From assembly GCF_000022265.1 (NCBI RefSeq), contig NC_011979.1:630001-662000 (forward strand): DNA of 32,000 bases, read 5' to 3'. The translations under genes and the position numbers were made by a program. The notes below the pieces were generated by a model, which was given only the letters and a program-made list of their open reading frames with translations, had not been told where the DNA came from and searched no databases. Numbering within the stretch: position 1 is the first letter of the stretch; every line of letters begins with the position of its first letter. Positions 22,635-32,000 of this stretch are shown in pieces. This stretch comes from Geotalea daltonii FRC-32. GTDB lineage: Bacteria; Desulfobacterota; Desulfuromonadia; Geobacterales; Geobacteraceae.

Positions 22635-22758
22635 TTAGTTATTAGTTAAAAGGTATACTGTATTCTAATTCAGTGTACCTTTTAATCAAAAAAACGAAAC
22701 GATACCGCGAAAACTGAATTCGACATTTAATGCAAAAATGCTGTAGTTTTATTGCTTA

Positions 22759-22788
22759 TTGTGGCATACTGCTTCGCCAATTTAAAAT
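22759..22788 (+). promoter_or_regulatory. Candidate sigma70-type promoter of the HD operon (TTGTGG-18-TAAAAT)
   Basis: Read by eye. The -10 box lies 27 nt upstream of the HD start codon and the -35 box is weak. Confidence 0.3.
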
Positions 22789-22814
22789 GGTCATTCTTGC
22801 GAGCAAGGTCAACA

Positions 22815-24104
22815 ATGCCACAGTTTTTCGAAATTCGCGACCCTATTCATGGCTTCGTAAAGATTACGGAGTGGGAACGGGACATCATTAATCAACCTGC
22901 CTTTCAACGGCTACGCAGGATTAAGCAACTTGCGTGGACCGACATGACATATCCTGGTGCTACACATTCTCGATTCGAACATTCACTGGGGGTTATGCAT
23001 GTAGTGACAATGCTCTTTGATTCGATCTGCGAGAGACAGCACGATTTTCTTTCCAGTCGTGAATTGCGGTATACAGTAGGTTCGTTGGAAAGGCTTCGCT
23101 GTCTCGTTCGATTAGCGGCTCTCTTACATGACATCGGTCATCCACCTTATTCGCATGCTGCCGAAGAAACTTTTCCGATTGATCCTGAAACTAATGAGCC
23201 GTACCCCCATGAAGAGTATTCTGCTGCTATAGTTAAATTTGAACTTGCAGACGTTATTGAAAATCATCCTTCGAACCATTTTCGCTTTAAAGTAGGTGAT
23301 GTCACCGCTTTTTTCACAAATGGAGCATGTAGAGAATGCTTGTTGTGGAAAGACCTTCTGTCTAGCCAAATGGATGGTGACAGAATGGACTACCTCTTGC
23401 GAGATTCGCATCACGCTGGAGTGAATTATGGCAAGTATGACCTAAACCGAATTGTAGCGACCATACGTCTTATAGAACGCCCCGACTCTGATGGCTACAC
23501 CATGGGCATTGATGAGGATGGAATTCATGCAGCTGAGGGCTTAATTCTTGCACGGTACATGATGTTTACACAGTTATATTTCCACAAGACGAGGGTCATT
23601 TACGACTACCATCTTGTAGAGGCCTTGAAGGAAATATTGACCGAATGTGGAGGTCATTTCCCTTTGCCAACAAGTGCCGACGACATTAAAGAATACTTGA
23701 AATGGGACGATTGGAGAGTTGGTGGAGCAATATCAGAAGGTAAAGGCGGCACCCATGGGCAGATCTTAAAAAATCGCCATCACTTCAGATTGTTGCATCA
23801 GACATCTGAAATACCTTCTATCCCAGAACTTGAAGACATTGATCGGCTTGAAGGTGTGTTGGCACCATTAGGAGCCATTAGGAAAAACGCCGAAAAGTCC
23901 TGGTACAAATTCAAGCAGCTGAATGACGAAATCCTTGTTCTGTCGAACTCCGGAAGTGCCAGATCGTCTGTTCTGCCTCTTTCCGTAAGATCGCCAGTAG
24001 TACAAGGTTTGAAGTCCGTCAACCAAAGCAGAATATACGTGCCCATCGATAAACGAGATGAGGCAATTGAGATTCTAAAAAGACAACAAGGGGAGGGGAC
24101 CTGA
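22815..24104 (+). CDS. HD-domain phosphohydrolase of the SAMHD1 / EF1143 / YwfO type (putative dNTP triphosphohydrolase)
   Basis: Motifs present: FEIRDPIHGFVKI, FQRLRRIKQL, THSRFEHSLGVMHV, LLHDIGHPPYSHAAE, MDGDRMDYLLRDSHHAGVNYGKYDL. Start set at MPQFFEIRDP (ATG at 22815) rather than the TTG at 22752. Confidence 0.8.
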   Translation: MPQFFEIRDPIHGFVKITEWERDIINQPAFQRLRRIKQLAWTDMTYPGATHSRFEHSLGVMHVVTMLFDSICERQHDFLSSRELRYTVGSLERLRCLVRLAALLHDIGHPPYSHAAEETFPIDPETNEPYPHEEYSAAIVKFELADVIENHPSNHFRFKVGDVTAFFTNGACRECLLWKDLLSSQMDGDRMDYLLRDSHHAGVNYGKYDLNRIVATIRLIERPDSDGYTMGIDEDGIHAAEGLILARYMMFTQLYFHKTRVIYDYHLVEALKEILTECGGHFPLPTSADDIKEYLKWDDWRVGGAISEGKGGTHGQILKNRHHFRLLHQTSEIPSIPELEDIDRLEGVLAPLGAIRKNAEKSWYKFKQLNDEILVLSNSGSARSSVLPLSVRSPVVQGLKSVNQSRIYVPIDKRDEAIEILKRQQGEGT

Positions 24105-24105
24105 G

Positions 24106-24639
24106 ATGAGCGGAACTCCATGGAAAGATTACGGTCTGATTTCCTATATTTCACAAAATGTAACTGATTTAGGGAAAACGAAATTACACAAGTTGGTCTA
24201 TCTCATCAAAGAGGTAGGCAAGGTGCCGGTTGGCTTTAATTTTCGCTTTTACAATTATGGCCCCTACTCGGACAATCTTGCTGAGACACTGGATTTTGTA
24301 ACTTCTTTGCAGGGCGTTAAGATGAATTATGATTCCACTGCAAATATGTATGAGATCTCTGCAGGCGAAAATGCAGCAAAGCTTGTTGAAAAAGCGACTG
24401 CTGAACTGGAACCGAATAAACCTACAATTGATGGAATTCTGACTGCTTATGGAAACAAAACAGCTAAAGAACTAGAACTGATAACGACCATACTGTATGC
24501 AAATAAGAATTATGAAGCTAAATCCGTTGAAGCCTTAACTCACACAACTAAAAATTTAAAGCCGAAGTTTAGCCTCACAGAAATTAGAGCATCCATTGGT
24601 CAATTACAAGCATCTGACTTGCTTTCTTTAACACAATAA
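24106..24639 (+). CDS. YwgA-like / DUF4065 (Panacea, SocA-like) domain protein
   Basis: 177 aa. GKTKLHKLVYLIKEVG…FRFYNYGPYSDNLAETLDFV matches my memory of the KLQKLxY…YGPYS signature of this superfamily. GGGAGGGG RBS. Starts 1 nt after the HD gene stop. Confidence 0.45.
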   Translation: MSGTPWKDYGLISYISQNVTDLGKTKLHKLVYLIKEVGKVPVGFNFRFYNYGPYSDNLAETLDFVTSLQGVKMNYDSTANMYEISAGENAAKLVEKATAELEPNKPTIDGILTAYGNKTAKELELITTILYANKNYEAKSVEALTHTTKNLKPKFSLTEIRASIGQLQASDLLSLTQ

Positions 24640-24644
24640 TTGAA

Positions 24645-25058
24645 ATGCTCAATTCATCGGATACAACTTATCTGAGTCTGCTTGAAAAGGCAGACTCAGC
24701 AAGGGAAAATGCTTACTGCGCTTATTCCAATTTCAAAGTTGGCGCGGCTCTGTTAACCAAGTCTGGTAACATTATTTTTGGGTCTAACGTTGAAAATGCC
24801 TCATATGGACTAACAAACTGTGCAGAAAGATCTGCAATCTTTGCAGCGATATCACGAGGTATTAAGCCTCAGGAAATTGATGCCATAGCTATTAGTGCAA
24901 CAGGTGAAAACTTTTCTCCTTGTGGTGCTTGTAGACAGGTTATTTTTGAAATGGGGTCTCAAATAGCTGTAATTTTCAGGTTTAACGGTAAAGTTGTAAT
25001 TGAACGCATTAGCGACCTGCTCCCGTACAGTTTCACGATAACTATCAATGGCCAATAA
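24645..25058 (+). CDS. Cytidine/deoxycytidine deaminase (small homotetrameric CDA type)
   Basis: 137 aa. AYSNFKVGAALL…, catalytic and zinc motifs NCAERSAIF and SPCGACRQVIFE. Confidence 0.85.
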   Translation: MLNSSDTTYLSLLEKADSARENAYCAYSNFKVGAALLTKSGNIIFGSNVENASYGLTNCAERSAIFAAISRGIKPQEIDAIAISATGENFSPCGACRQVIFEMGSQIAVIFRFNGKVVIERISDLLPYSFTITINGQ

Positions 25059-25329
25059 CCTCTTTATTTCATACGACCTTATGAATCCCGGTCAGAATTA
25101 TGACACTGTCATTGATGCCATAAAACTATTAGGCGCTTGGGCTAAAATCCATCAATCATTTTGGTATGTTAGCTCAAATTTTTCGGCCAAGGATGCGGCT
25201 GAACAGGTATGGCGGACCATGGATAGCAATGATAAGTTGCTTGTTGTAAACTCTTCCACCAACGATGCTTATTGGTATAACCTTCCCGGTAACGTTTCCG
25301 AACACATCCAACAACACTGGCGTGGATAG
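25048..25329 (+). CDS. 93-aa protein of unknown function, last gene of the HD/CDA operon
   Basis: Overlaps the CDA gene by 11 nt. MANNLFISYDLMNPGQNYDTVIDAIKLLGAWAKIHQSFWYVSS…DKLLVV suggests an alternating beta-alpha-beta (ferredoxin/Cas2-like) pattern. No family recognised. Confidence 0.45.
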   Translation: MANNLFISYDLMNPGQNYDTVIDAIKLLGAWAKIHQSFWYVSSNFSAKDAAEQVWRTMDSNDKLLVVNSSTNDAYWYNLPGNVSEHIQQHWRG

Positions 25330-25415
25330 CTTTCCTTCGCTCGACTTGCGCTGTCGGCTCGCTGTCCGCGGGTTGAAGAACTCCCTCAGATGAATGATGT
25401 TAGAACCCAATAGGA

Positions 25416-25949
25416 ATGGTAATGCGTCCCATAATATGCGTCACCTGGCTGGTTGCTCTTTGTTTCATGCCAGTATATGCTGCACCAATTCCCGCAAATG
25501 GTACTGTTGAAGCATTTTTTAGCCCGACCGGTGGTTGCACAGAATCCATCATCCGCGAAATCAATGGTGCACAGTCGGAAGTCTTGATTCAGGCTTACTC
25601 GTTTACATCTGCTCCGATAGCCAAAGCTATAATTGCCGCAAAGAGGCGGGGGGTCAAAATCGAGGCTGTACTGGACAAAAGCCAGCGGTCGGCGAAGTAT
25701 ACTGCGGCAACATTTCTCACAAATGCCGGTATTCCACTGTTGATAGATGATCACCATGCCATAGCACACAACAAAATTATCATCATAGACCGGAATACGT
25801 TGATTACCGGCAGCTTCAACTTTACCAAGGCAGCGGAGGAAAAGAACGCTGAGAACCTTTTAGTCATTAAAAACAACCAACCCCTTATATTGCAATACCT
25901 TCAGAACTTCGAACGTCATAGAACCCACTCAGAGCCTTACAAGCGCTAG
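25416..25949 (+). CDS. Secreted phospholipase-D-family endonuclease (Nuc-like)
   Basis: Signal peptide (ICVTWLVALCFMPVYA/AP) and a single HKD motif (HNKIIIIDRNTLITGSFNFT). The size of 177 aa is as in plasmid Nuc nucleases. Confidence 0.8.
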   Translation: MVMRPIICVTWLVALCFMPVYAAPIPANGTVEAFFSPTGGCTESIIREINGAQSEVLIQAYSFTSAPIAKAIIAAKRRGVKIEAVLDKSQRSAKYTAATFLTNAGIPLLIDDHHAIAHNKIIIIDRNTLITGSFNFTKAAEEKNAENLLVIKNNQPLILQYLQNFERHRTHSEPYKR

Positions 25950-26034
25950 ATTACCTTCATTCCGAAGATATCTATTGCTCAGATATGAGAAAAAGTAATA
26001 AAATTCGAATACCTATGCTACAAGGATATGAAAG

Positions 26035-26937
26035 ATGCATATGATTGAAGCGGTTGAAACTATTCAGAATCAACCGGCAATAGACTATAATGTACCGGTA
26101 AACATTGTTACGGGAGACGTGCGTCAACGCCTGTCCGAGCTTCCCGAAAAAATGTTCCGTTGCTGTGTTACCAGTCCACCGTATTGGGGCCTTCGCGACT
26201 ACGGAGCCGAAGATCAAATCGGCTCTGAGATGACAGTTGAAGAATACATAAGTGACCTGACAGCTGTATTCCGCGAAGTTCGAAGGGTTCTGGCCGATGA
26301 TGGCACCTTTTGGCTCAATATTGGAGATTCATACACAAGTGGTAACCGGACTTGGCGTGATCCTGATAAAAAAAATCCTGCTAGGGGCATGACATATCGT
26401 GCACCAACCCCAGAGGGTTTGAAGCCGAAAGATTTAATCGGCATCCCCTGGAAACTCGCATTTGCGTTGCAATTAGATGGCTGGTATCTCCGGTCTGACA
26501 TTATCTGGAATAAACCAAACTGCCAACCAGAGTCTGTCAAAGACCGCCCCACTCGGTCACATGAATATGTGTTTTTGTTGACGAAATCCGAAAAGTACTT
26601 TTACAATTGGGAAGCTGTTCGGGAGCCTGCAAAAACAACAAAGCATTATCGGAGCAAACGGACGGTATGGGATATCAATACTGAACCCTTCAGTGAGGCT
26701 CATTTTGCGGTATTTCCGCCTGGACTCGTTGAACCCTGCTTGATGGCTGGCTCAGAGCCTGGCGATTTTATTCTGGACCCATTTTTTGGGTCAGGGACTG
26801 TCGGGGTGGTGTGCTTGAGGTTAGGAAGGAAGTGCGTTGGTGTTGAACTGAAACCAGAATATGTCGAAATTGCAAAAAAACGACTTCAGCCTGAAGCTAA
26901 TCTATTCCTACCACAAGAAGTAATAAGAGTAGCTTAA
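26035..26937 (+). CDS. Type II DNA methyltransferase, beta-class amino-MTase (SPPY motif, probably N4-cytosine)
   Basis: Motif IV (CCVTSPPYWGLRDYG) precedes motif I (ILDPFFGSGTVGVV). AAGGA RBS. Confidence 0.85.
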   Translation: MHMIEAVETIQNQPAIDYNVPVNIVTGDVRQRLSELPEKMFRCCVTSPPYWGLRDYGAEDQIGSEMTVEEYISDLTAVFREVRRVLADDGTFWLNIGDSYTSGNRTWRDPDKKNPARGMTYRAPTPEGLKPKDLIGIPWKLAFALQLDGWYLRSDIIWNKPNCQPESVKDRPTRSHEYVFLLTKSEKYFYNWEAVREPAKTTKHYRSKRTVWDINTEPFSEAHFAVFPPGLVEPCLMAGSEPGDFILDPFFGSGTVGVVCLRLGRKCVGVELKPEYVEIAKKRLQPEANLFLPQEVIRVA

Positions 26938-27683
26938 CAAGCGAACTTCCATTCGCCATGGACTGTACACAAGCCTTTGCGTAAGTTTTTGATTTGCAAT
27001 TTTCTCTCGCCGCCACCGTCGAAGTATAATTCAAAGACTAATTCTCCATCCTCGAAGACTCGACAGTAACCTGGTTTTGGAAATTGGGTGCTGTCGTTGC
27101 ACATTTCAAAGCTGCCATTTGCGGCTTTTTGCAACAAAGACTTTGGTATTTCAACTAATTCGTAATGCCAATCTTTTGGTGTCCGAGACAAAGTGCGTAG
27201 AGTGAAAATCCGCTGGTAGGCAGCCATATGCCTAAAAAAGCTATCTCGTAATCCATGCAAATCCTCAACCTTATCTCCCCAAACACCTTTACCAAGTTCC
27301 ATGAACTTCGATATATGGACTTTGTCCACCTTCAGGCTCCGGTCTGCTTGCGTCTTTAGGGACACCGGTATGCCCATTATAGTGATATCATGTCCTGGAT
27401 TGCACTTATCTGCCAGCTTGGCAGAAACCCCACACCGACTTAAGGCTTGCTCCATGGCGTATTCAAATTTATCCTTGCTAAATGCATCCTTGGATAAGCA
27501 ATGGTGAATGCGCAAGATGTCCCCAAACGCCTCAAGAAAATCTTCTGAAACGATATCAGAAACAGGATTCCTCCAATATGTGCCAGGTGTTGTCAACCTG
27601 CATGCAATACTTTGAATGCACTCAATTTGCTGCTGGGAAAGTCCAGGAAGAGCACTGGAGAGAGTGTTAAGGCAGATTGGCAT
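26934..27683 (-). CDS. Probable type II restriction endonuclease, partner of the SPPY methyltransferase
   Basis: 249 aa, convergent with the MTase with a 4-nt overlap at the 3' ends. Possible PD…SxK nuclease core (NPGHDITIMGIPVSLKTQ). Has its own strong promoter. Assignment is by context only. Confidence 0.5.
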   Translation of the reverse strand: MPICLNTLSSALPGLSQQQIECIQSIACRLTTPGTYWRNPVSDIVSEDFLEAFGDILRIHHCLSKDAFSKDKFEYAMEQALSRCGVSAKLADKCNPGHDITIMGIPVSLKTQADRSLKVDKVHISKFMELGKGVWGDKVEDLHGLRDSFFRHMAAYQRIFTLRTLSRTPKDWHYELVEIPKSLLQKAANGSFEMCNDSTQFPKPGYCRVFEDGELVFELYFDGGGERKLQIKNLRKGLCTVHGEWKFAC

Positions 27684-27801: not shown

Positions 27802-27830
27802 TTGACAAGAGGCAAAAAGCACATTAAACT
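27802..27830 (+). promoter_or_regulatory. Sigma70-type promoter of the XRE-ImmA operon (TTGACA-17-TAAACT)
   Basis: The -35 box is at 27802-27807 and the -10 box at 27825-27830. It is divergent from the REase promoter. Confidence 0.6.
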
Positions 27831-27855
27831 AATCAGCTAATTAGCGTACTAGCAG
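27829..27855. promoter_or_regulatory. Operator-like box A (CTAATCAGCTAATTAGCGTACTAGCAG)
   Basis: Contains the perfect palindrome GCTAATTAGC (27836-27845) and an ATCAGC half-site (27832-27837). It overlaps the -10/+1 of the XRE promoter. 17/20 identical to box B. Confidence 0.5.
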
Positions 27856-27866
27856 TTTGGGGGTTA

Positions 27867-28181
27867 ATGCGGATGCAGTCAAAAAATGTCAGCTTTGGAA
27901 CTTATATAGCCGAAGTACGCAAGGCAAAGACGATGAGTCAGAAGGAAGTTGCTGCAAAGCTGGATATTTCCCCGCAATACCTGAACGATATTGAACATGA
28001 TAAACGGTCCCCATCCTCTCCGCAGCTTATTGATCTTCTTGCTACTACACTTGAAATAAGTGCTGATTATTTGTCATATTTGGCTGGTAGAATCCCTGAA
28101 GAAGTCAAGGAGAGAAAACTTGACCCAGTCACCTTCGAAAAAGCCATGGTTGCATTTCGTAAAGCAACGGAGAAAAAGTAG
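27867..28181 (+). CDS. XRE-family helix-turn-helix transcriptional regulator (CapH/ImmR-like)
   Basis: 104 aa. HTH_3 pattern: FGTYIAEVRKAKTMSQKEVAAKLDISPQYLNDIEHDKRSPS. Confidence 0.85.
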   Translation: MRMQSKNVSFGTYIAEVRKAKTMSQKEVAAKLDISPQYLNDIEHDKRSPSSPQLIDLLATTLEISADYLSYLAGRIPEEVKERKLDPVTFEKAMVAFRKATEKK

Positions 28182-28183
28182 CC

Positions 28184-28873
28184 ATGCCGAAAATGGTTCG
28201 CGACATAACTGGTAAGTTCAATCAACGGCCACATTACGAACCGCGCGAACTTGATATGGAATGTGAGAAAATTATCTGTGATTTTCTCCGCACCCTTTAC
28301 GGCCAAGTCTCATTTCCTGTCTCAACCGATGATCTAACCAAACTCGTTGAAAAATTTGCATCTTCCTTCGATCAGTACGCTGATCTTTCAGAATATGGTG
28401 CTAACGTTGATGGCCTCACCGAGTTTTACGCGAAGGGAAAGCCGAAAGTTTCGGTTGCGGCAAGGCTTTCCGAATCTTCTACATACGAGAATCGGTTCAG
28501 GACAACCATGACGCATGAACTGTTTCACGCAATTTTCCATGACTATCTCTATAAAATGGAACTGGTTTCTCCAGCGTCAAAGAATGGTGCCTTGCAAATT
28601 TGCAAGCGTGACGACATCATGTCCAAGTCAAAAGCCTCCGGTGCCACCGACTGGATGGAGTGGCAAGCGGGTTATGCTTGTGGAGCGTTCTTGATGCCTG
28701 CCTCTTTTCTTAAAAAGACCGTTGAGGCATACTGCACCGTGGCGAACGTGACAAACCCGATAAGTCAATCAAATCCTCGAAGCGATGAACTCATTGAAGC
28801 GGTTATGTCCGCTTTTCAGGTCTCAAAAGACGCTGCACGGGTCCGGTTGTTGGTTACAAACCACCTGCAATAA
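28184..28873 (+). CDS. ImmA/IrrE-family zinc metallopeptidase (CapP-like)
   Basis: 229 aa. HEXXH motif (MTHELFHAIFH) with downstream EWQAGYACGAFLMP, which resembles the ImmA/IrrE third-ligand region. Starts 3 nt after the XRE gene stop. Confidence 0.7.
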   Translation: MPKMVRDITGKFNQRPHYEPRELDMECEKIICDFLRTLYGQVSFPVSTDDLTKLVEKFASSFDQYADLSEYGANVDGLTEFYAKGKPKVSVAARLSESSTYENRFRTTMTHELFHAIFHDYLYKMELVSPASKNGALQICKRDDIMSKSKASGATDWMEWQAGYACGAFLMPASFLKKTVEAYCTVANVTNPISQSNPRSDELIEAVMSAFQVSKDAARVRLLVTNHLQ

Positions 28874-28886
28874 CAACTGCTTAAAA

Positions 28887-28915
28887 AGCGAGAAAAAATA
28901 TTCTTGCTTTTTTTG
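28887..28915 (+). terminator. Rho-independent terminator after the XRE-ImmA operon
   Basis: AGCGAGAA-AAAATA-TTCTTGCT (8 bp, one G-U pair) followed by TTTTTTGTT. Confidence 0.55.
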
Positions 28916-28924
28916 TTCTCCTCA

Positions 28925-28949
28925 GATACGCTGATTAGCGTATCAGCAG
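28925..28949. promoter_or_regulatory. Operator-like box B upstream of the Ubl operon
   Basis: Two interleaved inverted repeats: GATACGCT/AGCGTATC (28925-32 and 28937-44) and GCTGAT-N6-ATCAGC (28930-35 and 28942-47). The 20-mer at 28930-28949 matches box A at 17/20. It lies 32 nt upstream of the Ubl ATG. Confidence 0.5.
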
Positions 28950-28980: not shown

Positions 28981-29238
28981 ATGGAGCGAGAAAAGGATCA
29001 GCAGCACGACGACCACGGCAAGGAGAATGTAACCATCACGATTGACGATAATCCGTGGACGGTACACCGAGGGCACCATACCGTTGCAGAGCTTAAGACG
29101 CTGGCGGGAGTCCCTCTAGCCTATGACCTCGACAGGGTAATCGACGGCAAGTTTGAGCCATTGCCCGACGATGGGGGTGTCACCATCAAAGGAGGCGAAA
29201 TCTTCATCAGCCACGTAAAAGACGGCTCGTCGTCCTGA
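28981..29238 (+). CDS. Single-domain beta-grasp ubiquitin-like protein ('Multiubiquitin'-family, BilA-like)
   Basis: 85 aa. VTITIDDNPWTVHRGHHTVAELKTLAGVPLAYDLDRVIDGKFEPLPDDGGVTIKGGEIF fits the bacterial Multiubiquitin-domain pattern. AGGAG RBS. It is the first gene of an E2-JAB-E1 operon. Confidence 0.65.
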   Translation: MEREKDQQHDDHGKENVTITIDDNPWTVHRGHHTVAELKTLAGVPLAYDLDRVIDGKFEPLPDDGGVTIKGGEIFISHVKDGSSS

Positions 29239-29250
29239 AGGAGGCTCCAC

Positions 29251-29595
29251 ATGGATTTTCCACAGGAACAAATCGATGAAATGAAGGCAACGTTTCCCGG
29301 TATCAGCCACTCAGAGGAAGGCGGATTCGATTTCTTCTTCATACCGGGACTGAAACTGCCGTCGTCCTGTTCGCCGGAATCAGTTGACGTTCTTTTCTGC
29401 CCGAACCAGCGAGGAGGGTATAACTCGCGTTTGTACTTTGCTTCAATGGTCCAGTCCGGAAAGGCCCTTAATTGGAACGGTCAGAACGAATTCATCCTGG
29501 GCCGTCGGTGGTTTGCCTTTTCATGGCAGTTGCCACCCGCAGAAAGACGTCTTTCGCAGATGGTTGCGCTACACCTGAGAGGATTAATATGCTGA
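29251..29595 (+). CDS. Prokaryotic E2-like ubiquitin-conjugating protein (Prok-E2_E type, BilB-like)
   Basis: 114 aa. AAGGAGG RBS. Candidate catalytic Cys in VDVLFCPNQRGGYNSRLYF. The position between Ubl and JAB is as in Bil/ISG15-like operons. Confidence 0.55.
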   Translation: MDFPQEQIDEMKATFPGISHSEEGGFDFFFIPGLKLPSSCSPESVDVLFCPNQRGGYNSRLYFASMVQSGKALNWNGQNEFILGRRWFAFSWQLPPAERRLSQMVALHLRGLIC

Positions 29596-30110
29596 TTCAC
29601 GTCAAGATGACCAGGCATGTTTACGAGAAAATGCGGGCGGACCTGAACCGCCCGCATGATTTCGCCTACGAACGAGTGGGATTCATCTTTGCCCGGAAAG
29701 ACACCGCCGACAAAGACGCAATCCTGCTTCTTGCGACGGAATATTACCCCGTGCCGGATGTTCATTACATCGATGACCCGAAAGTCGGGGCAAAGATCAA
29801 CTCTTCGGCAATCCGCAGCGTTATGGAAAGAGCTTACTCCTCAAAAGAGTGTATATTGCACGTCCATCAACATGACCATTCGGGCGCGCCGCGCTTTAGC
29901 CGGCTTGATCGGCTGGAATACAACAAGATGATACCGTCTTTCCACAATATCGGAGGGGGAGCAATTCACGGTGCTCTGGTGTTCAGTCTGGACAATGCCG
30001 TTGGCTTAGTCTGGACATCAAAACACGATTCGCCCGAACCGGTCAGAAAACTAACCATTGTCGGCTATCCCATAGAGACGCTAAAGCCGGGGGCAGGATT
30101 ATATGTGTGA
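29589..30110 (+). CDS. JAB/MPN (JAMM) metallopeptidase, Prok-JAB type (BilC-like deconjugating/processing peptidase)
   Basis: Start set at MLIHVKM (ATG at 29589), overlapping the E2 stop. Conserved Glu (AYERVGFIF) and a JAMM-like HVHQHDHSGAPRFSRLD. Confidence 0.7.
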   Translation: MLIHVKMTRHVYEKMRADLNRPHDFAYERVGFIFARKDTADKDAILLLATEYYPVPDVHYIDDPKVGAKINSSAIRSVMERAYSSKECILHVHQHDHSGAPRFSRLDRLEYNKMIPSFHNIGGGAIHGALVFSLDNAVGLVWTSKHDSPEPVRKLTIVGYPIETLKPGAGLYV

Positions 30111-30909
30111 CGACAGATACGACAGGCAGTCCTTTTTGGGAGAGAATTCACAGGCTAAGATTGCAGCATGTACCGTCGGGATCATTGGCCTTGGTGGTGG
30201 CGGGTCGCATGTAGCCCAACAGCTTGCGCATGTGGGATTTCAGAAATATGTTCTGTATGACCCGGACATGCCGGAAGACTCGAACCTCAATCGGCTAATT
30301 GGCGCAACGGTTAGGGACGTAAAAAATAAAGTTCCAAAGGTCCAAATCGCCAGAAGGGTCATACGCGGACTACAGCCGAGGGCTAAAATCCAAATGATAA
30401 GGGAGCGCTGGCAAGACAACCCACTCCCGCTCGGGAACTGTGACATCATTGTCGGTTGTGTGGATGGATATAAAGGGCGACATGAGTTGGAAACTTTTTC
30501 CCGCCGCCACCTCATGCCGTACATCGACATCGGAATTGATGTGGTTCAGGTTGATCCCCAACCGCCAGTCTTAAGCGGTCAGGTGATTGCATCTCTTCCC
30601 GGTGGTCCGTGTATGTGGTGCTTGGGTTTCTTAACGGAAAAGAAACTCGCCGCCGAAGCGAAAAAGTATGGCGACGCGGGGCACAATCCGCAGGTGGTTT
30701 GGGCGAATGGGGTGGTTGCCTCTGCCGCAGTTGGTATTGCGGTCGATTTAGTGACGGGGTGGACTGGATCGGCTCAAGATGTTGTTTACTTGTCGTATGA
30801 GGGCAATTCAGGATTGGTGCTACCGCACAAGCGATTGACTGTCGTGGATAGGTCATGTCAGCATTTCCCGCATGATCAGGTGGGAGAGGCAAGGTTTATT
30901 CCACTGTAG
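30103..30909 (+). CDS. ThiF/MoeB-family E1-like adenylating enzyme (BilD-like)
   Basis: RYDRQ, Rossmann IIGLGGGGSHVAQQLAHVG, YDPDMPEDSNLNRL, and a Cys pair GGPCMWC. It overlaps the JAB stop by 8 nt. Confidence 0.85.
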   Translation: MCDDRYDRQSFLGENSQAKIAACTVGIIGLGGGGSHVAQQLAHVGFQKYVLYDPDMPEDSNLNRLIGATVRDVKNKVPKVQIARRVIRGLQPRAKIQMIRERWQDNPLPLGNCDIIVGCVDGYKGRHELETFSRRHLMPYIDIGIDVVQVDPQPPVLSGQVIASLPGGPCMWCLGFLTEKKLAAEAKKYGDAGHNPQVVWANGVVASAAVGIAVDLVTGWTGSAQDVVYLSYEGNSGLVLPHKRLTVVDRSCQHFPHDQVGEARFIPL

Positions 30910-31585
30910 CCATCGAATACTCAACATTGCCTAACAGGTAGGCATAACTGATCTTACCTTTCTTTGAGTCTATCCTTTCTTGGACGATTGCTTTGTCGAT
31001 GCCGATAATCATACCCTTTCTGATCTTTCCCCCCTGTAGGATGGCCCAATAATAGATATCTTCATATAATTTGGTTCTGGATATTTCCAAATCGCTCTTG
31101 GCAAGTGCCTCAAGCATCTTTTCAACAGCGTAATTCTTCTTTACATACCGTTTTAGGGCAACCAATCTTTTCAGAAAATCGTCCTCTCTCTTGATGCGCC
31201 TATTAACTGTCTCAAGCTGGCGATTTGTATACCTCGTCAGGTCAATGCCAGTACGCTTTTTAACCTGTGCATCTGAACCATAAGACAGTCTTTGGTAGAA
31301 TATATTCCTGGCCTGCGATAATTCATCCTTCGCTAGGTAAAACTCTGGCGATAACTTGTTAATATAATTAAATAACTTCATTGAGTAATGCAGCATGCGG
31401 CATTCGTTTATGTCGTACTCATATGCCCGAGAACATAACAGTGCGAGTAGTGGCCTCCAGTACATGGGGTCAGAATTGGTCTTGATTATTTCGAACGTAA
31501 TGTAAAACCATTGTCGCCTGAGGCTTGGTTCCGCAGCGCTCAACTCCTCTTTCGTCATATTGTCGTGGTTCATGACTATGGTCAT
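30896..31585 (-). CDS. Hypothetical 229-aa protein, translationally coupled to the serine recombinase
   Basis: ATGA start/stop overlap with the recombinase at 31582-31585. No recognisable motif. The 3' end overlaps the E1 gene by 14 nt, convergently. Confidence 0.5.
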   Translation of the reverse strand: MTIVMNHDNMTKEELSAAEPSLRRQWFYITFEIIKTNSDPMYWRPLLALLCSRAYEYDINECRMLHYSMKLFNYINKLSPEFYLAKDELSQARNIFYQRLSYGSDAQVKKRTGIDLTRYTNRQLETVNRRIKREDDFLKRLVALKRYVKKNYAVEKMLEALAKSDLEISRTKLYEDIYYWAILQGGKIRKGMIIGIDKAIVQERIDSKKGKISYAYLLGNVEYSMATVE

Positions 31586-32000
31586 GATGCTCTTCCAATG
31601 TCGTGGTCACGCAACTTGCGCGAATGGATAAAGTTGTAGACTGTCCCCCGTGAGACTTCAAAGATTTTTGAAATTGACGCCATCGAAACCTTTTTACGTA
31701 GCAACTCCCTGATCTGCTCCTCTACCCCATCCAGCTTGCTTGCGCTTGTCCGGCCTTTCGGCCTGCCAATTTTCACCCCTGCCGCTTTCTTTGCCTCCAG
31801 TGCTCTTTTTGTTCGCTCAGATATTAAATCCCTTTCCAGTTCAGCGAACAGCGAAAATAACGTGACCATGACCTTGCTTTGGACATTCCCGTTGCCACTC
31901 ACCGTCATGTTCTGTTTGATAGCTATGAGCGCCACCCCCATTTCCGTCAACTGCTTAACAATGTTCAGTACCTCAACGGTGCTTCTGCCGATCCGTGAAA
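31582..32000 (-). CDS. Serine recombinase (resolvase/invertase family), C-terminal part; the 5' end is beyond the window
   Basis: Hand extension of the frame to the window edge gives …SRIGRSTVEVLNIVKQLTEMGVALIAIKQNMTVSGNGNVQSKVMVTLFSLFAELERDLISERTKRALEAKKAAGVKIGRPK… plus a C-terminal HTH (ISKIFEVSRGTVYNFI). Confidence 0.85.
   Translation of the reverse strand, partial: SRIGRSTVEVLNIVKQLTEMGVALIAIKQNMTVSGNGNVQSKVMVTLFSLFAELERDLISERTKRALEAKKAAGVKIGRPKGRTSASKLDGVEEQIRELLRKKVSMASISKIFEVSRGTVYNFIHSRKLRDHDIGRAS

What the first reader, a model, noticed from the sequence alone, without database searches (positions are those of the whole stretch)
28981..30909. Minimal bacterial ubiquitination-like operon (Ubl - E2 - JAB - E1), Bil/ISG15-like architecture
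The four genes are in the order beta-grasp Ubl (85 aa), small E2-like (114 aa), JAMM peptidase (173 aa) and ThiF-type E1 (268 aa). Strong RBSs precede the first two. Start/stop overlaps link E2 to JAB (7 nt) and JAB to E1 (8 nt).

This is the Multiubiquitin / Prok-E2 / Prok-JAB / E1 neighbourhood predicted by comparative genomics. It was recently shown, as the Bil or ISG15-like system, to conjugate a Ubl onto phage tail proteins. Here the Ubl is a single short beta-grasp domain with an acidic/His-rich N-terminal tail (MEREKDQQHDDHGKE), and the E2 is very small. This looks like a stripped-down variant.

Its host is apparently an anaerobic deltaproteobacterium, and the operon has a different base composition (30/60 GC in a hand sample) from its island neighbours.
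Basis: partly seen in the sequence, partly recalled or inferred. Interest (0 to 1): 0.75.

Follow-up and report, generated by a model that had tools for sequence, protein, structure and literature searches.

The report
Minimal cysteine-free bacterial ubiquitination-like operon
The four genes are a real ubiquitin-like tagging cassette, but it belongs to the recently described cysteine-free "Bub" lineage rather than the Bil/ISG15-like one, and it represents a stripped-down, uncatalogued subtype that current annotation profiles miss.

Summary
The four ORFs exist exactly as described: Ubl 85 aa, E2-like 114 aa, JAMM peptidase 173 aa, E1 268 aa, with 7- and 8-nt overlaps. The same cassette recurs in 59 species across many phyla.

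It is not a Bil system. The E1 is a single ThiF-type domain, and its best solved relative is Citrobacter BubCD. The predicted E2 fold matches only BubB. The predicted JAB fold matches the BubCD peptidase domain best.

No cysteine is conserved in the E2. The conserved candidates for catalysis are Ser91 in the E2 and Tyr189 in the E1 crossover loop. The E1 CMWC motif pairs with Cys252/His254 and looks like a structural zinc site. This points to Bub-style oxyester chemistry, not thioesters.

Differences from published Bub operons:
- All four genes are separate.
- The DUF6527/BubE protease is absent.
- The E2 Ser lacks the His/Asp partners.

A CapH/CapP-like regulator pair lies immediately upstream, and a 16-nt box is shared by the capH and Ubl upstream regions. 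The setting is a defence island.

Verdict: a new variant of a known kind. The conjugation target and the biological role are unknown.

The parts
27802..27830 (+). Sigma-70-like promoter candidate upstream of capH (TTGACA-17-TAAACT)
   Evidence: Consensus scan, 10/12 matches. This is a pattern match only. The number of such sites in the region is not above the shuffled expectation.
27840..27855 (+). Copy 1 of the 16-nt box ATTAGCGTANNAGCAG, a candidate CapH operator, 12 nt before the capH start
   Evidence: The box occurs exactly twice in 32 kb, against 0.00 expected from shuffles.
27867..28181 (+). CapH-like XRE/HTH transcriptional repressor (104 aa)
   Evidence: Pfam HTH_3 4.4e-13. PADLOC capH 3.1e-11.
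28184..28873 (+). CapP-like M78/ImmA-IrrE metallopeptidase (229 aa), contains the HELFH zinc motif
   Evidence: Pfam Peptidase_M78 8.2e-6, above the gathering score. PADLOC capP 1.8e-6. An M78+HTH pair lies within 3 kb upstream of the cassette in 22 of 44 related loci.
28883..28912 (+). Terminator-like hairpin plus T-run after capP
   Evidence: 12-bp stem, 6-nt loop, T-run. Pattern match only.
28930..28949 (+). Palindrome GCTGAT-TAGCGT-ATCAGC carrying copy 2 of the 16-nt box (28934-28949), 32 nt before the Ubl start
   Evidence: Sequence read. Box count.
28981..29238 (+). Ubl (BubA-like) with a single beta-grasp domain, a disordered acidic/His-rich N-terminal tail and the C-terminus ...VKDG82-SSS
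   Evidence: Pfam Multi_ubiq E 9.6e-4, 19.7 bits, below the 24.5-bit cut-off. 29 of 45 relatives match Multi_ubiq, best 5.9e-32. The family profile hits solved multi-ubiquitin proteins at 4.9e-25. The C-terminal G-x-S-S is near-invariant.
29251..29595 (+). BubB-type non-cysteine E2-like protein (114 aa); candidate nucleophile Ser91
   Evidence: AF2 model pLDDT 90.4. The only confident PDB fold match is Citrobacter BubB 9eae_C, probability 1.0, TM 0.67. hhalign against classical BubB: 81%, E 1.2e-5, with S91 on the catalytic Ser column. S91 is kept in 56/56 relatives and C50 in only 38/56.
29589..30110 (+). JAB/JAMM zinc metallopeptidase (173 aa); motif E28, H91-x-H93, S104-x2-D107
   Evidence: These residues are invariant in 28 homologues. 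AF2 pLDDT 88.8. Best PDB fold match is BubCD 9ea4, TM 0.81, rmsd 2.7 A, E 1.8e-10, followed by BRCC36 and Rpn11.
30103..30909 (+). Single-domain ThiF-type E1 (268 aa). It has adenylation residues R64/K79/D142, a Zn-like C170-x2-C173 plus C252-x-H254, and an invariant crossover-loop Tyr189.
   Evidence: Pfam ThiF 1.8e-27. Best PDB sequence hit is BubCD, 3.7e-16 for the single sequence and 5e-25 for the profile, against 5e-17 for MoeB. hhalign to Pseudanabaena BubCD: 99.8%, 6.8e-29.

Best explanation
This is a four-gene ubiquitination-like protein-conjugation cassette of the Bub lineage (operon type 6e, Multiubiquitin). All components are encoded separately and there is no BubE/DUF6527 protease.

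Proposed steps. All of them are inferred, not shown.
1. The JAMM peptidase removes the C-terminal tripeptide SSS from the 85-aa Ubl precursor and exposes Gly82.
2. The E1, presumably a homodimer, adenylates Gly82 with ATP.
3. The activated Ubl passes to the invariant crossover-loop Tyr189 as an oxyester.
4. It then passes to the invariant Ser91 of the small BubB-type E2.
5. Finally it is attached to lysines of still unknown targets.

The E2 cysteines and the E1 CMWC motif are not the catalytic residues.

The upstream CapH repressor and CapP protease probably control expression, acting through a 16-nt box present in both the capH and the Ubl upstream regions. The cassette would then be switched on by DNA damage or phage infection.

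The role is most likely anti-phage defence or a stress response. No such role has been demonstrated for any Bub system.
For: Homology of all three enzymes to Bub components:
- E1: sequence hits to BubCD and hhalign 99.8% to a published Type I BubCD.
- E2: fold match to BubB only and hhalign E 1.2e-5 to classical BubB.
- JAB: best fold match is the BubCD peptidase domain.

The Ubl family is Multi_ubiq.

Continuity with Type I Bub:
- 13 relatives in Bacteroidota carry a JAB-E1 fusion of 441-528 aa.
- Some relatives carry a Ubl-E2 fusion (L027, P0077, P0096). These keep the G-SS[AS] junction, as expected for a JAB cleavage site.

Catalytic residues:
- S91 56/56, against C50 38/56 and C40 26/56.
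- Y189 53/53, with no crossover-loop cysteine.
- R64, K79 and D142 are shared with classical BubCD.
- The published biochemistry shows a Tyr and a Ser oxyester relay and cleavage after the Ubl Gly by the JAB domain.

Regulation and setting:
- capH/capP calls.
- An M78+HTH pair upstream in 22/44 relatives.
- The 16-nt box occurs twice against 0 expected.
- Neighbouring defence genes.
Against: - No biochemistry exists for this subfamily.
- The E2 Ser lacks the His and Asp partners that are invariant in Type I Bub. Q93 (a variable column) and R60 align there, so reactivity is uncertain.
- The family Tyr sits two residues C-terminal of the classical BubCD Tyr in the loop: E-A-x-x-Y-G against E/D-A/P-Y-x-x-G.
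- A MAFFT alignment of the E2s with classical BubB placed S91 differently. The Ser equivalence therefore rests on hhalign and on invariance.
- Foldseek gave no residue-level map.
- C50 is invariant within the window's own close clade, 13/13.
- Two relatives end ...DSQAS and ...DAAAS, with no Gly.
- The cassette lacks BubE, which the Bub authors describe as present in all Bub operons.
- No Bub operon has been shown to protect against phage.
Confidence: 0.68

Rival explanations
1. Bil-type thioester cascade. The Ubl passes from an E1 cysteine (CMWC) to an E2 cysteine (Cys40 or Cys50) and is attached to phage tail proteins.
For: The gene order Ubl-E2-JAB-E1 is the same as bilABCD. C50 is invariant in the 13 closest E2 homologues. 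Type II Bil Ubls are also Multi_ubiq-like (8u38).
Against: - The E1 is 268 aa, a single domain with no IAD or CYS domain.
- BubCD, not any Bil E1, is the best solved relative.
- No Bil protein appears among the listed E2 or JAB fold matches.
- C50 and C40 are not conserved family-wide.
- C170/C173 co-vary with C252/H254, the pattern of a zinc site.
Confidence: 0.07
2. The E2-like protein is a catalytically inert RWD-like adaptor, as Iyer et al. 2006 originally predicted for type 6e. The E1 alone transfers the Ubl, directly from the adenylate or from the Tyr ester, and the E2-like protein only supplies target or Ubl binding.
For: There is no conserved Cys, and the His/Asp pair that accompanies the catalytic Ser in Type I Bub is absent. 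The original inactive-E2 prediction is quoted.
Against: S91 is one of only four invariant residues in 56 diverse sequences. It aligns with the Ser whose mutation abolishes conjugation in Citrobacter and E. coli Bub. R60 (51/56) and H108 (55/56) are near-invariant and could play the role of the Lys+His pair of Type II Bub.
Confidence: 0.15
3. A sulfur-carrier or cofactor-biosynthesis ThiF/MoeB system with a ThiS/MoaD-type partner.
For: The E1 scores against ThiF/MoeB models, but far below their cut-offs: 70 bits against 275 for TIGR02356.
Against: - The Ubl ends G-S-S-S, not GG.
- An E2-like protein and a JAMM peptidase are translationally coupled to the E1.
- No thiG, thiH, moaE or rhodanese gene is nearby.
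- The E1 has no crossover-loop cysteine.
- The cassette lies in a low-GC defence island and on plasmids.
Confidence: 0.02

Closest known systems
Type I Bub operons (6E.1): BubAB, BubCD, BubE. Ye, Gong, Chambers & Corbett, bioRxiv 10.1101/2024.11.21.623953; PDB 9ea4, 9eae, 9eav.
   Same: - Multi_ubiq-type Ubl with a processed C-terminal Gly.
- UBC-like E2 without a catalytic Cys and with an invariant Ser.
- JAMM peptidase.
- Single-domain E1 with an invariant crossover-loop Tyr and no loop Cys.
- Frequent CapH/CapP regulators.
- Location in mobile or defence contexts.
- Some relatives of this cassette even carry the JAB-E1 and Ubl-E2 fusions.
   Different: - All four genes are separate here.
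- There is no DUF6527/BubE, either in the window or in 62 related loci.
- The E2 (114 aa) is not detected by Pfam, NCBIfam or PADLOC. In classical operons PGAP calls it 'E2/UBC family protein'; in this family PGAP calls it 'hypothetical protein'.
- The E2 Ser is accompanied by Arg60 and a variable residue instead of Asp and His.
- The E1 Tyr is shifted by two residues.
- E1 identity to classical BubCD is only 36-40% over two thirds of the protein, against 46-54% full-length within the family.
Type II Bub operons (6E.2): BubA, BubBD, BubE
   Same: Ser-E2 and Tyr-E1 oxyester logic. The E2 Ser is accompanied by a basic residue plus His (Lys+His in Type II). This family has near-invariant Arg60 and His108.
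   Different: Type II has an E2-E1 fusion, usually no JAB peptidase, and always BubE. This cassette has a JAB peptidase and no BubE.
Type I/II Bil (BilABCD; operon types 6d and 6c/CEHH). Chambers et al. 2024; Hor et al. 2024.
   Same: Gene order Ubl-E2-JAB-E1. JAB pre-processing of the Ubl. CapH/CapP association in a minority of operons. Type II BilA can be Multi_ubiq-like.
   Different: Bil E1 is multidomain (IAD-AAD-CYS) with a catalytic Cys. Bil E2 has a catalytic Cys (the CEHH signature in Type II). The chemistry is thioester. An anti-phage function through tail-protein conjugation has been shown for Bil only.
ThiF/MoeB and UBA5-type homodimeric E1-like adenylyltransferases
   Same: Single Rossmann-type adenylation domain, Arg finger, Mg-binding Asp, and a CxxC...C zinc-type motif.
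   Different: Those enzymes carry a crossover-loop Cys or serve sulfur transfer. Here the loop carries an invariant Tyr, and the partners are an E2 and a JAMM peptidase.

Membership tests
Bil (Type I/II BilABCD) | Gene order Ubl-E2-JAB-E1 | tested here: met
   The published order is given.
Bil (Type I/II BilABCD) | Multidomain E1 (inactive plus active adenylation domains and a mobile CYS domain with the catalytic cysteine) | tested here: not met
   The E1 is 268 aa with one ThiF domain covering residues 10-236. There is no crossover-loop Cys in 53 family members. The best solved relatives are BubCD, MoeB and ThiF.
Bil (Type I/II BilABCD) | E2 with a conserved catalytic cysteine (CEHH signature in Type II) | tested here: not met
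   C40 is kept in 26/56 and C50 in 38/56. The only invariant residues are Y57, W75, W87 and S91.
Bil (Type I/II BilABCD) | Ubl conjugated to phage tail protein, giving protection from phage | not testable with these tools
   Requires experiments.
Bub (6e / Multiubiquitin lineage) | Multi_ubiq-type beta-grasp Ubl with a conserved C-terminal Gly exposed by processing | tested here: inconclusive
   The window protein scores below the Pfam cut-off, 19.7 against 24.5 bits. 29/45 relatives pass at E<=0.01 and the profile hits solved multi-ubiquitin proteins. The G-x-S-S end is near-invariant and is kept as the linker in fused relatives. Cleavage itself was not tested.
Bub (6e / Multiubiquitin lineage) | UBC-fold E2 lacking Cys, with an invariant Ser at the catalytic position | tested here: met
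   Fold match to BubB, probability 1.0, TM 0.67. hhalign 81%, E 1.2e-5, with S91 on the catalytic Ser column. S91 is kept in 56/56. Caveat: a MAFFT alignment disagreed.
Bub (6e / Multiubiquitin lineage) | Ser accompanied by invariant His+Asp (Type I) or Lys+His (Type II) | tested here: not met
   Q93 (variable: N/Q/K/R) aligns with the His and R60 aligns with the Asp. R60 and H108 are near-invariant, but their spatial position was not determined.
Bub (6e / Multiubiquitin lineage) | Single-domain E1 without a catalytic Cys and with an invariant crossover-loop Tyr | tested here: met
   Y189 is kept in 53/53 and there is no loop Cys. hhalign 99.8% to Pseudanabaena BubCD. The Tyr is offset by two residues relative to five classical BubCDs.
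Bub (6e / Multiubiquitin lineage) | JAB fused to E1 (Type I) or E2 fused to E1 (Type II) | tested here: not met
   The genes are separate, with an 8-nt overlap. Fusions occur in 13 relatives.
Bub (6e / Multiubiquitin lineage) | DUF6527/BubE serine protease in the operon ('all Bub operons encode BubE') | tested here: not met
   - No Pfam hit among the window's island proteins.
- tblastn with Pseudanabaena BubE finds nothing in the window or in 62 loci, best E 0.35.
- 30 neighbouring ORFs from related loci give no PF20137 hit.
- Annotated plasmid copies end at the E1.
- Caveat: the published Bub catalogue was ascertained by the presence of DUF6527.
JAB/JAMM (MPN+) metallopeptidases | E ... HxH ... 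S-x2-D zinc and catalytic motif on an MPN fold | tested here: met
   E28, H91, H93, S104 and D107 are invariant. Fold matches to BubCD, BRCC36 and Rpn11. The Pfam Prok-JAB model hits only 2/28 relatives, weakly.
CapH/CapP regulator pair | Adjacent XRE-HTH and M78 peptidase genes next to the controlled operon | tested here: met
   Here the pair is co-oriented, whereas most relatives have it divergent. The response to DNA damage was not tested.
ThiS/MoaD-ThiF/MoeB sulfur-carrier systems | GG-ended carrier, biosynthetic partner genes, and a loop Cys or rhodanese domain | tested here: not met
   The Ubl ends GSSS. No partner genes are in the window. NCBIfam ThiF/MoeB scores are far below their cut-offs.

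The most novel reading that the evidence does not exclude
This cassette typifies a third, uncatalogued type of Bub pathway.
- It is a fully unfused, BubE-independent, four-gene system.
- Its E2 uses a Ser with Arg/His helpers instead of His/Asp.
- Its single JAMM peptidase would have to carry out both Ubl maturation and any deconjugation.

If so, cysteine-free oxyester ubiquitination-like chemistry is broader than the DUF6527-defined set. The cassette occurs in at least 59 species in about ten phyla and on rhizobial and methanotroph plasmids. It would also be the smallest natural E1-E2-Ubl-DUB set available for study.
Probability: 0.45. Interest if true: 0.6.

Novelty: new variant of a known kind. 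Interest (0 to 1): 0.5.

Why it matters
Bub pathways are the only known ubiquitination-like cascades that work without catalytic cysteines, and their biological role is still unknown.

The published catalogue was built from DUF6527-containing operons. A BubE-less subfamily would therefore have been missed by design. Its E2 and JAB are also invisible to Pfam, NCBIfam and PADLOC, and PGAP annotates them as hypothetical proteins.

Recognising this subfamily does four things:
- It widens the known distribution of the chemistry.
- It shows that the BubE protease and the gene fusions are dispensable.
- It offers natural variation at the E2 active site for testing how a Ser oxyester is made reactive.
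- It provides a compact CapH/CapP-controlled system in a clear defence-island setting for asking what Bub systems do.

It also corrects the experimental plan. The mutants to make are S91A and Y189F, not the cysteines.

Tried and rejected
- Pfam, NCBIfam and PADLOC on the E2 and the JAB gave no hits.
- PDB sequence searches with the single proteins and with their profiles gave nothing for the E2 and the JAB. Only fold comparison worked.
- The small E2 profile (13 sequences) against BubAB was not significant, 2.4%. The 54-sequence profile was needed.
- A MAFFT alignment of this E2 family with classical BubB gave a different register for S91. I preferred the hhalign register because it recurs against one sequence and against a five-sequence profile, and because it conserves G-R-x-W...S-W. 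This is a judgement, not proof.
- Type II Bil membership looked plausible from its catalogue: four separate genes, one or three beta-grasp domains, and similar taxa. I rejected it on the E1 and E2 defining features.
- The sulfur-carrier reading was rejected (see rivals).
- The 229-aa convergent ORF downstream was considered as a fifth component. It has no Pfam hit and is absent from all related loci, so it was rejected.
- Host identification failed. The exact Lon protein is not on record, and other proteins are found only in unnamed SRA assemblies.
- No phage genome carries the JAB.
- The Burroughs 2009 and 2011 papers are not held.
- One literature search was wasted on a generic term.
Full report
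OBSERVATION

The ORF listing extends the JAB ORF to a TTG at 29472. However, 42 homologues are 166-173 aa long and begin MxIHVK, so the ATG at 29589 is the start. E2/JAB overlap 7 nt and JAB/E1 overlap 8 nt. GGAG-type ribosome-binding sites precede the Ubl and the E2. The cassette is 0.50-0.55 GC, inside a 22-32 kb island of 0.38-0.47 GC and next to a core of about 0.57 GC. Independent assemblies carry identical genes with the same gene calls.

CONSERVATION

- The E2-like protein has only 12 close clusters in a 5.8-billion-protein set. A profile search finds 293 clusters at 50% identity among 1.84 billion representatives. Nearly all are free-standing proteins of 105-120 aa.
- A scan of one genome per species with the JAB alignment returned 59 loci. 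They come from Deltaproteobacteria, Nitrospirota, Acidobacteriota, Alphaproteobacteria, Bacteroidota, Verrucomicrobiota, Myxococcota, Saccharibacteria, Cyanobacteriota and Actinomycetes.
- Local HMM searches over the 62 related loci held at that point (these 59 plus the three) found the E2 in 62, the JAB in 60, the E1 in 58 and the Ubl in 54, always in the order Ubl-E2-JAB-E1.
- The same cassette sits on complete plasmids of cultured bacteria, for example Bosea vaviloviae and Methylocystis rosea. PGAP calls the genes [quoted passage not shown].
- No phage genome carries the JAB.

WHAT THE PROTEINS ARE

E1
- Pfam ThiF, 1.8e-27.
- The best solved relative by sequence is Citrobacter BubCD: 3.7e-16 for the single sequence and 5e-25 for the family profile. 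MoeB and ThiF reach 5e-17 and 1e-16 with the same profile.
- Against the BubCD of Pseudanabaena sp. PCC 7367, an operon listed in the Bub paper, hhalign gives 99.8%, E 6.8e-29, over the whole E1 domain.

E2
- No Pfam, NCBIfam, PADLOC or PDB sequence hit for the protein or its profile. None of 54 family members hits any Pfam E2 model.
- The AF2 model is confident, pLDDT 90.4. Its single convincing PDB match is BubB (9eae_C, probability 1.00, TM 0.67). Ubc13 is next at probability 0.20.
- A 54-sequence profile against five classical BubB sequences taken from plasmids gives hhalign 81%, E 1.2e-5, over 93 columns.

JAB
- E28, H91, H93, S104 and D107 are invariant.
- The model (pLDDT 88.8) matches the BubCD peptidase domain best: TM 0.81, rmsd 2.7 A, E 1.8e-10. 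BRCC36 and Rpn11 follow.

Ubl
- The window protein gives a sub-threshold Multi_ubiq hit.
- 29 of 45 relatives hit Multi_ubiq, down to 5.9e-32. The family profile finds the solved multi-ubiquitin proteins.

BIL OR BUB

They are different operon types of Iyer et al. 2006. The polyUbl, cysteine-less E2 and JAB-E1 type is 6e, now called Bub. Bil corresponds to the 6d and 6c/CEHH types. Those have a multidomain E1 with catalytic Cys417 and an E2 with catalytic Cys138 in Ensifer aridi. This cassette fails both Bil-defining features and matches Bub components in all three enzymes.

CATALYTIC RESIDUES

- E2. Across 56 non-redundant E2s, only Y57, W75, W87 and S91 are invariant. C40 is present in 26 and C50 in 38. 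hhalign puts S91-W92-Q93 on the classical S-W-H (or S-R-H), and R60 on the classical Asp. In Citrobacter these positions are S333, H335 and D299, and the S333A/H335A mutant abolishes conjugation.
- E1. Across 53 E1s, the adenylation residues R64, K79 and D142 are invariant. So are C170-x2-C173 together with C252-x-H254. Y189 in the loop E-A-x-x-Y-G-x-A-G is invariant, and the loop has no cysteine.
- Classical BubCDs share R, K, D, the CxxC pair and the third Cys. They carry their invariant Tyr two residues earlier in the same segment.
- The CMWC motif is therefore most simply a structural zinc site, as in MoeB/ThiF (my knowledge of those structures). The likely nucleophiles are Tyr189 and Ser91.

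UBL C-TERMINUS

Nearly every family Ubl ends G-x-S-S; the window has D-G82-S-S-S. Fused Ubl-E2 relatives keep G-S-S-[AS] as the junction, followed directly by the E2 N-terminus. BubCD cleaves BubAB directly after the conserved Gly. I infer that the JAB removes SSS here. Two relatives lack the Gly (L006 and L018), and I cannot explain this.

HOW THE CASSETTE DIFFERS FROM PUBLISHED BUB

1. All four genes are separate. Thirteen Bacteroidota relatives have the JAB-E1 fusion and a few have the Ubl-E2 fusion, so the family is continuous with Type I Bub.
2. There is no DUF6527/BubE, on four lines of evidence:
   - nothing in the window;
   - no tblastn hit in the window or in the 62 loci;
   - no PF20137 hit among 30 neighbouring ORFs;
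   - annotated plasmid copies stop at the E1.
   By contrast, classical plasmid operons fetched for comparison all carry DUF6527. The Bub authors state that all Bub operons encode BubE, but their list was ascertained from DUF6527-containing operons. This subfamily would therefore not have been collected.
3. The E2 lacks the His/Asp partners. R60 (51/56) and H108 (55/56) are the conserved alternatives.
4. The E1s are 46-54% identical within the family. They are only 36-40% identical to classical BubCD, and over two thirds of the length.

REGULATION AND CONTEXT

- Directly upstream and co-oriented are an XRE-HTH gene (PADLOC capH, 3e-11) and an M78 peptidase gene (capP, 1.8e-6).
- An M78+HTH pair lies within 3 kb upstream in 22 of 44 relatives that have enough flank. 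It is usually divergent. In published Bub operons the figure is 31%.
- A 16-nt box, ATTAGCGTANNAGCAG, occurs exactly twice in the window, against 0.00 expected. One copy lies between a promoter-like site and the capH start. The other lies inside a palindrome 32 nt before the Ubl start.
- A terminator-like hairpin follows capP.
- I read this as two CapH-repressed promoters. That is an inference.
- The island also encodes an HD/dGTPase-like protein, a SocA/Panacea protein, a cytidine deaminase, a PLD nuclease, an N4/N6 methyltransferase with a SmaI-family endonuclease, and a truncated resolvase.

FUNCTION

The conjugation target and the physiological role are unknown. No Bub operon has been shown to protect against phage as of 2026. 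Anti-phage or DNA-damage stress function is a contextual inference only.

VERDICT

The family assignment and the proposed catalytic residues are wrong. The cassette is a new variant of a known kind, an unfused, BubE-less, profile-invisible branch of the Bub lineage.

Noticed in passing
window 27840-27855 and 28934-28949: A 16-nt box, ATTAGCGTANNAGCAG, occurs only twice in the window (0.00 expected). One copy lies before capH. The other lies inside a GCTGAT-N6-ATCAGC palindrome before the Ubl gene. It is a candidate CapH operator at two promoters.
   Followed up: partly
window 22752-27683: The rest of the low-GC island is a run of defence-type genes:
- HD/dGTPase-like protein (450 aa)
- SocA/Panacea-domain protein
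- cytidine/dCMP deaminase
- PLD-family nuclease
- N4/N6 DNA methyltransferase, convergent and overlapping with a SmaI-family restriction endonuclease (Pfam 3.8e-175)

The HD, Panacea and deaminase genes are tightly packed and may form one system.
   Followed up: no
window 30896-31585 (-) and 31582-31950 (-): A 229-aa ORF with no family hit converges on the E1 and overlaps its last 14 nt. It is followed by a resolvase gene, cut short by the window end (210 aa in other assemblies). The pair travels with the cassette in SRA contigs but is absent from all related loci. It probably belongs to the mobile element, not to the system.
   Followed up: partly
window 27867-28873 versus 28981-30909: capH/capP (0.43-0.47 GC) differ in composition from the four cassette genes (0.50-0.55 GC). 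This suggests that the regulator pair and the cassette were joined from different sources.
   Followed up: no
L069 3336-4820, L070 3355-4803, L071 3303-4907: Classical Type I Bub operons on Mesorhizobium, Deinococcus and Bradyrhizobium plasmids carry a gene of about 480-530 aa, annotated 'phosphotransferase', between the JAB-E1 gene and the DUF6527 gene. It is not part of the published three-gene Type I scheme that I read.
   Followed up: no
L006 5335-5589 and L018 5354-5650: Two family Ubls end ...PKDSQAS and ...PKDAAAS, with no glycine at the otherwise conserved G-x-S-S position. Either these are processed at Ser/Ala or they are defective.
   Followed up: no
L012 4646-6004; L044 2811-3935: The mechanically called ORF that contains the E2 in one Acidobacteria locus is 452 aa, with no separate Ubl detected. 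One Verrucomicrobia Ubl is 374 aa. These may be unusual N-terminal extensions or fusions, or artefacts of calling the longest ORF.
   Followed up: no
L001 11770-13436, L002 5936-7601: In the closest metagenomic relatives of the cassette, the E1 is followed on the same strand by two DUF488 genes and a DuOB-domain gene. This may be an accessory module specific to that clade. It is absent from the window.
   Followed up: no
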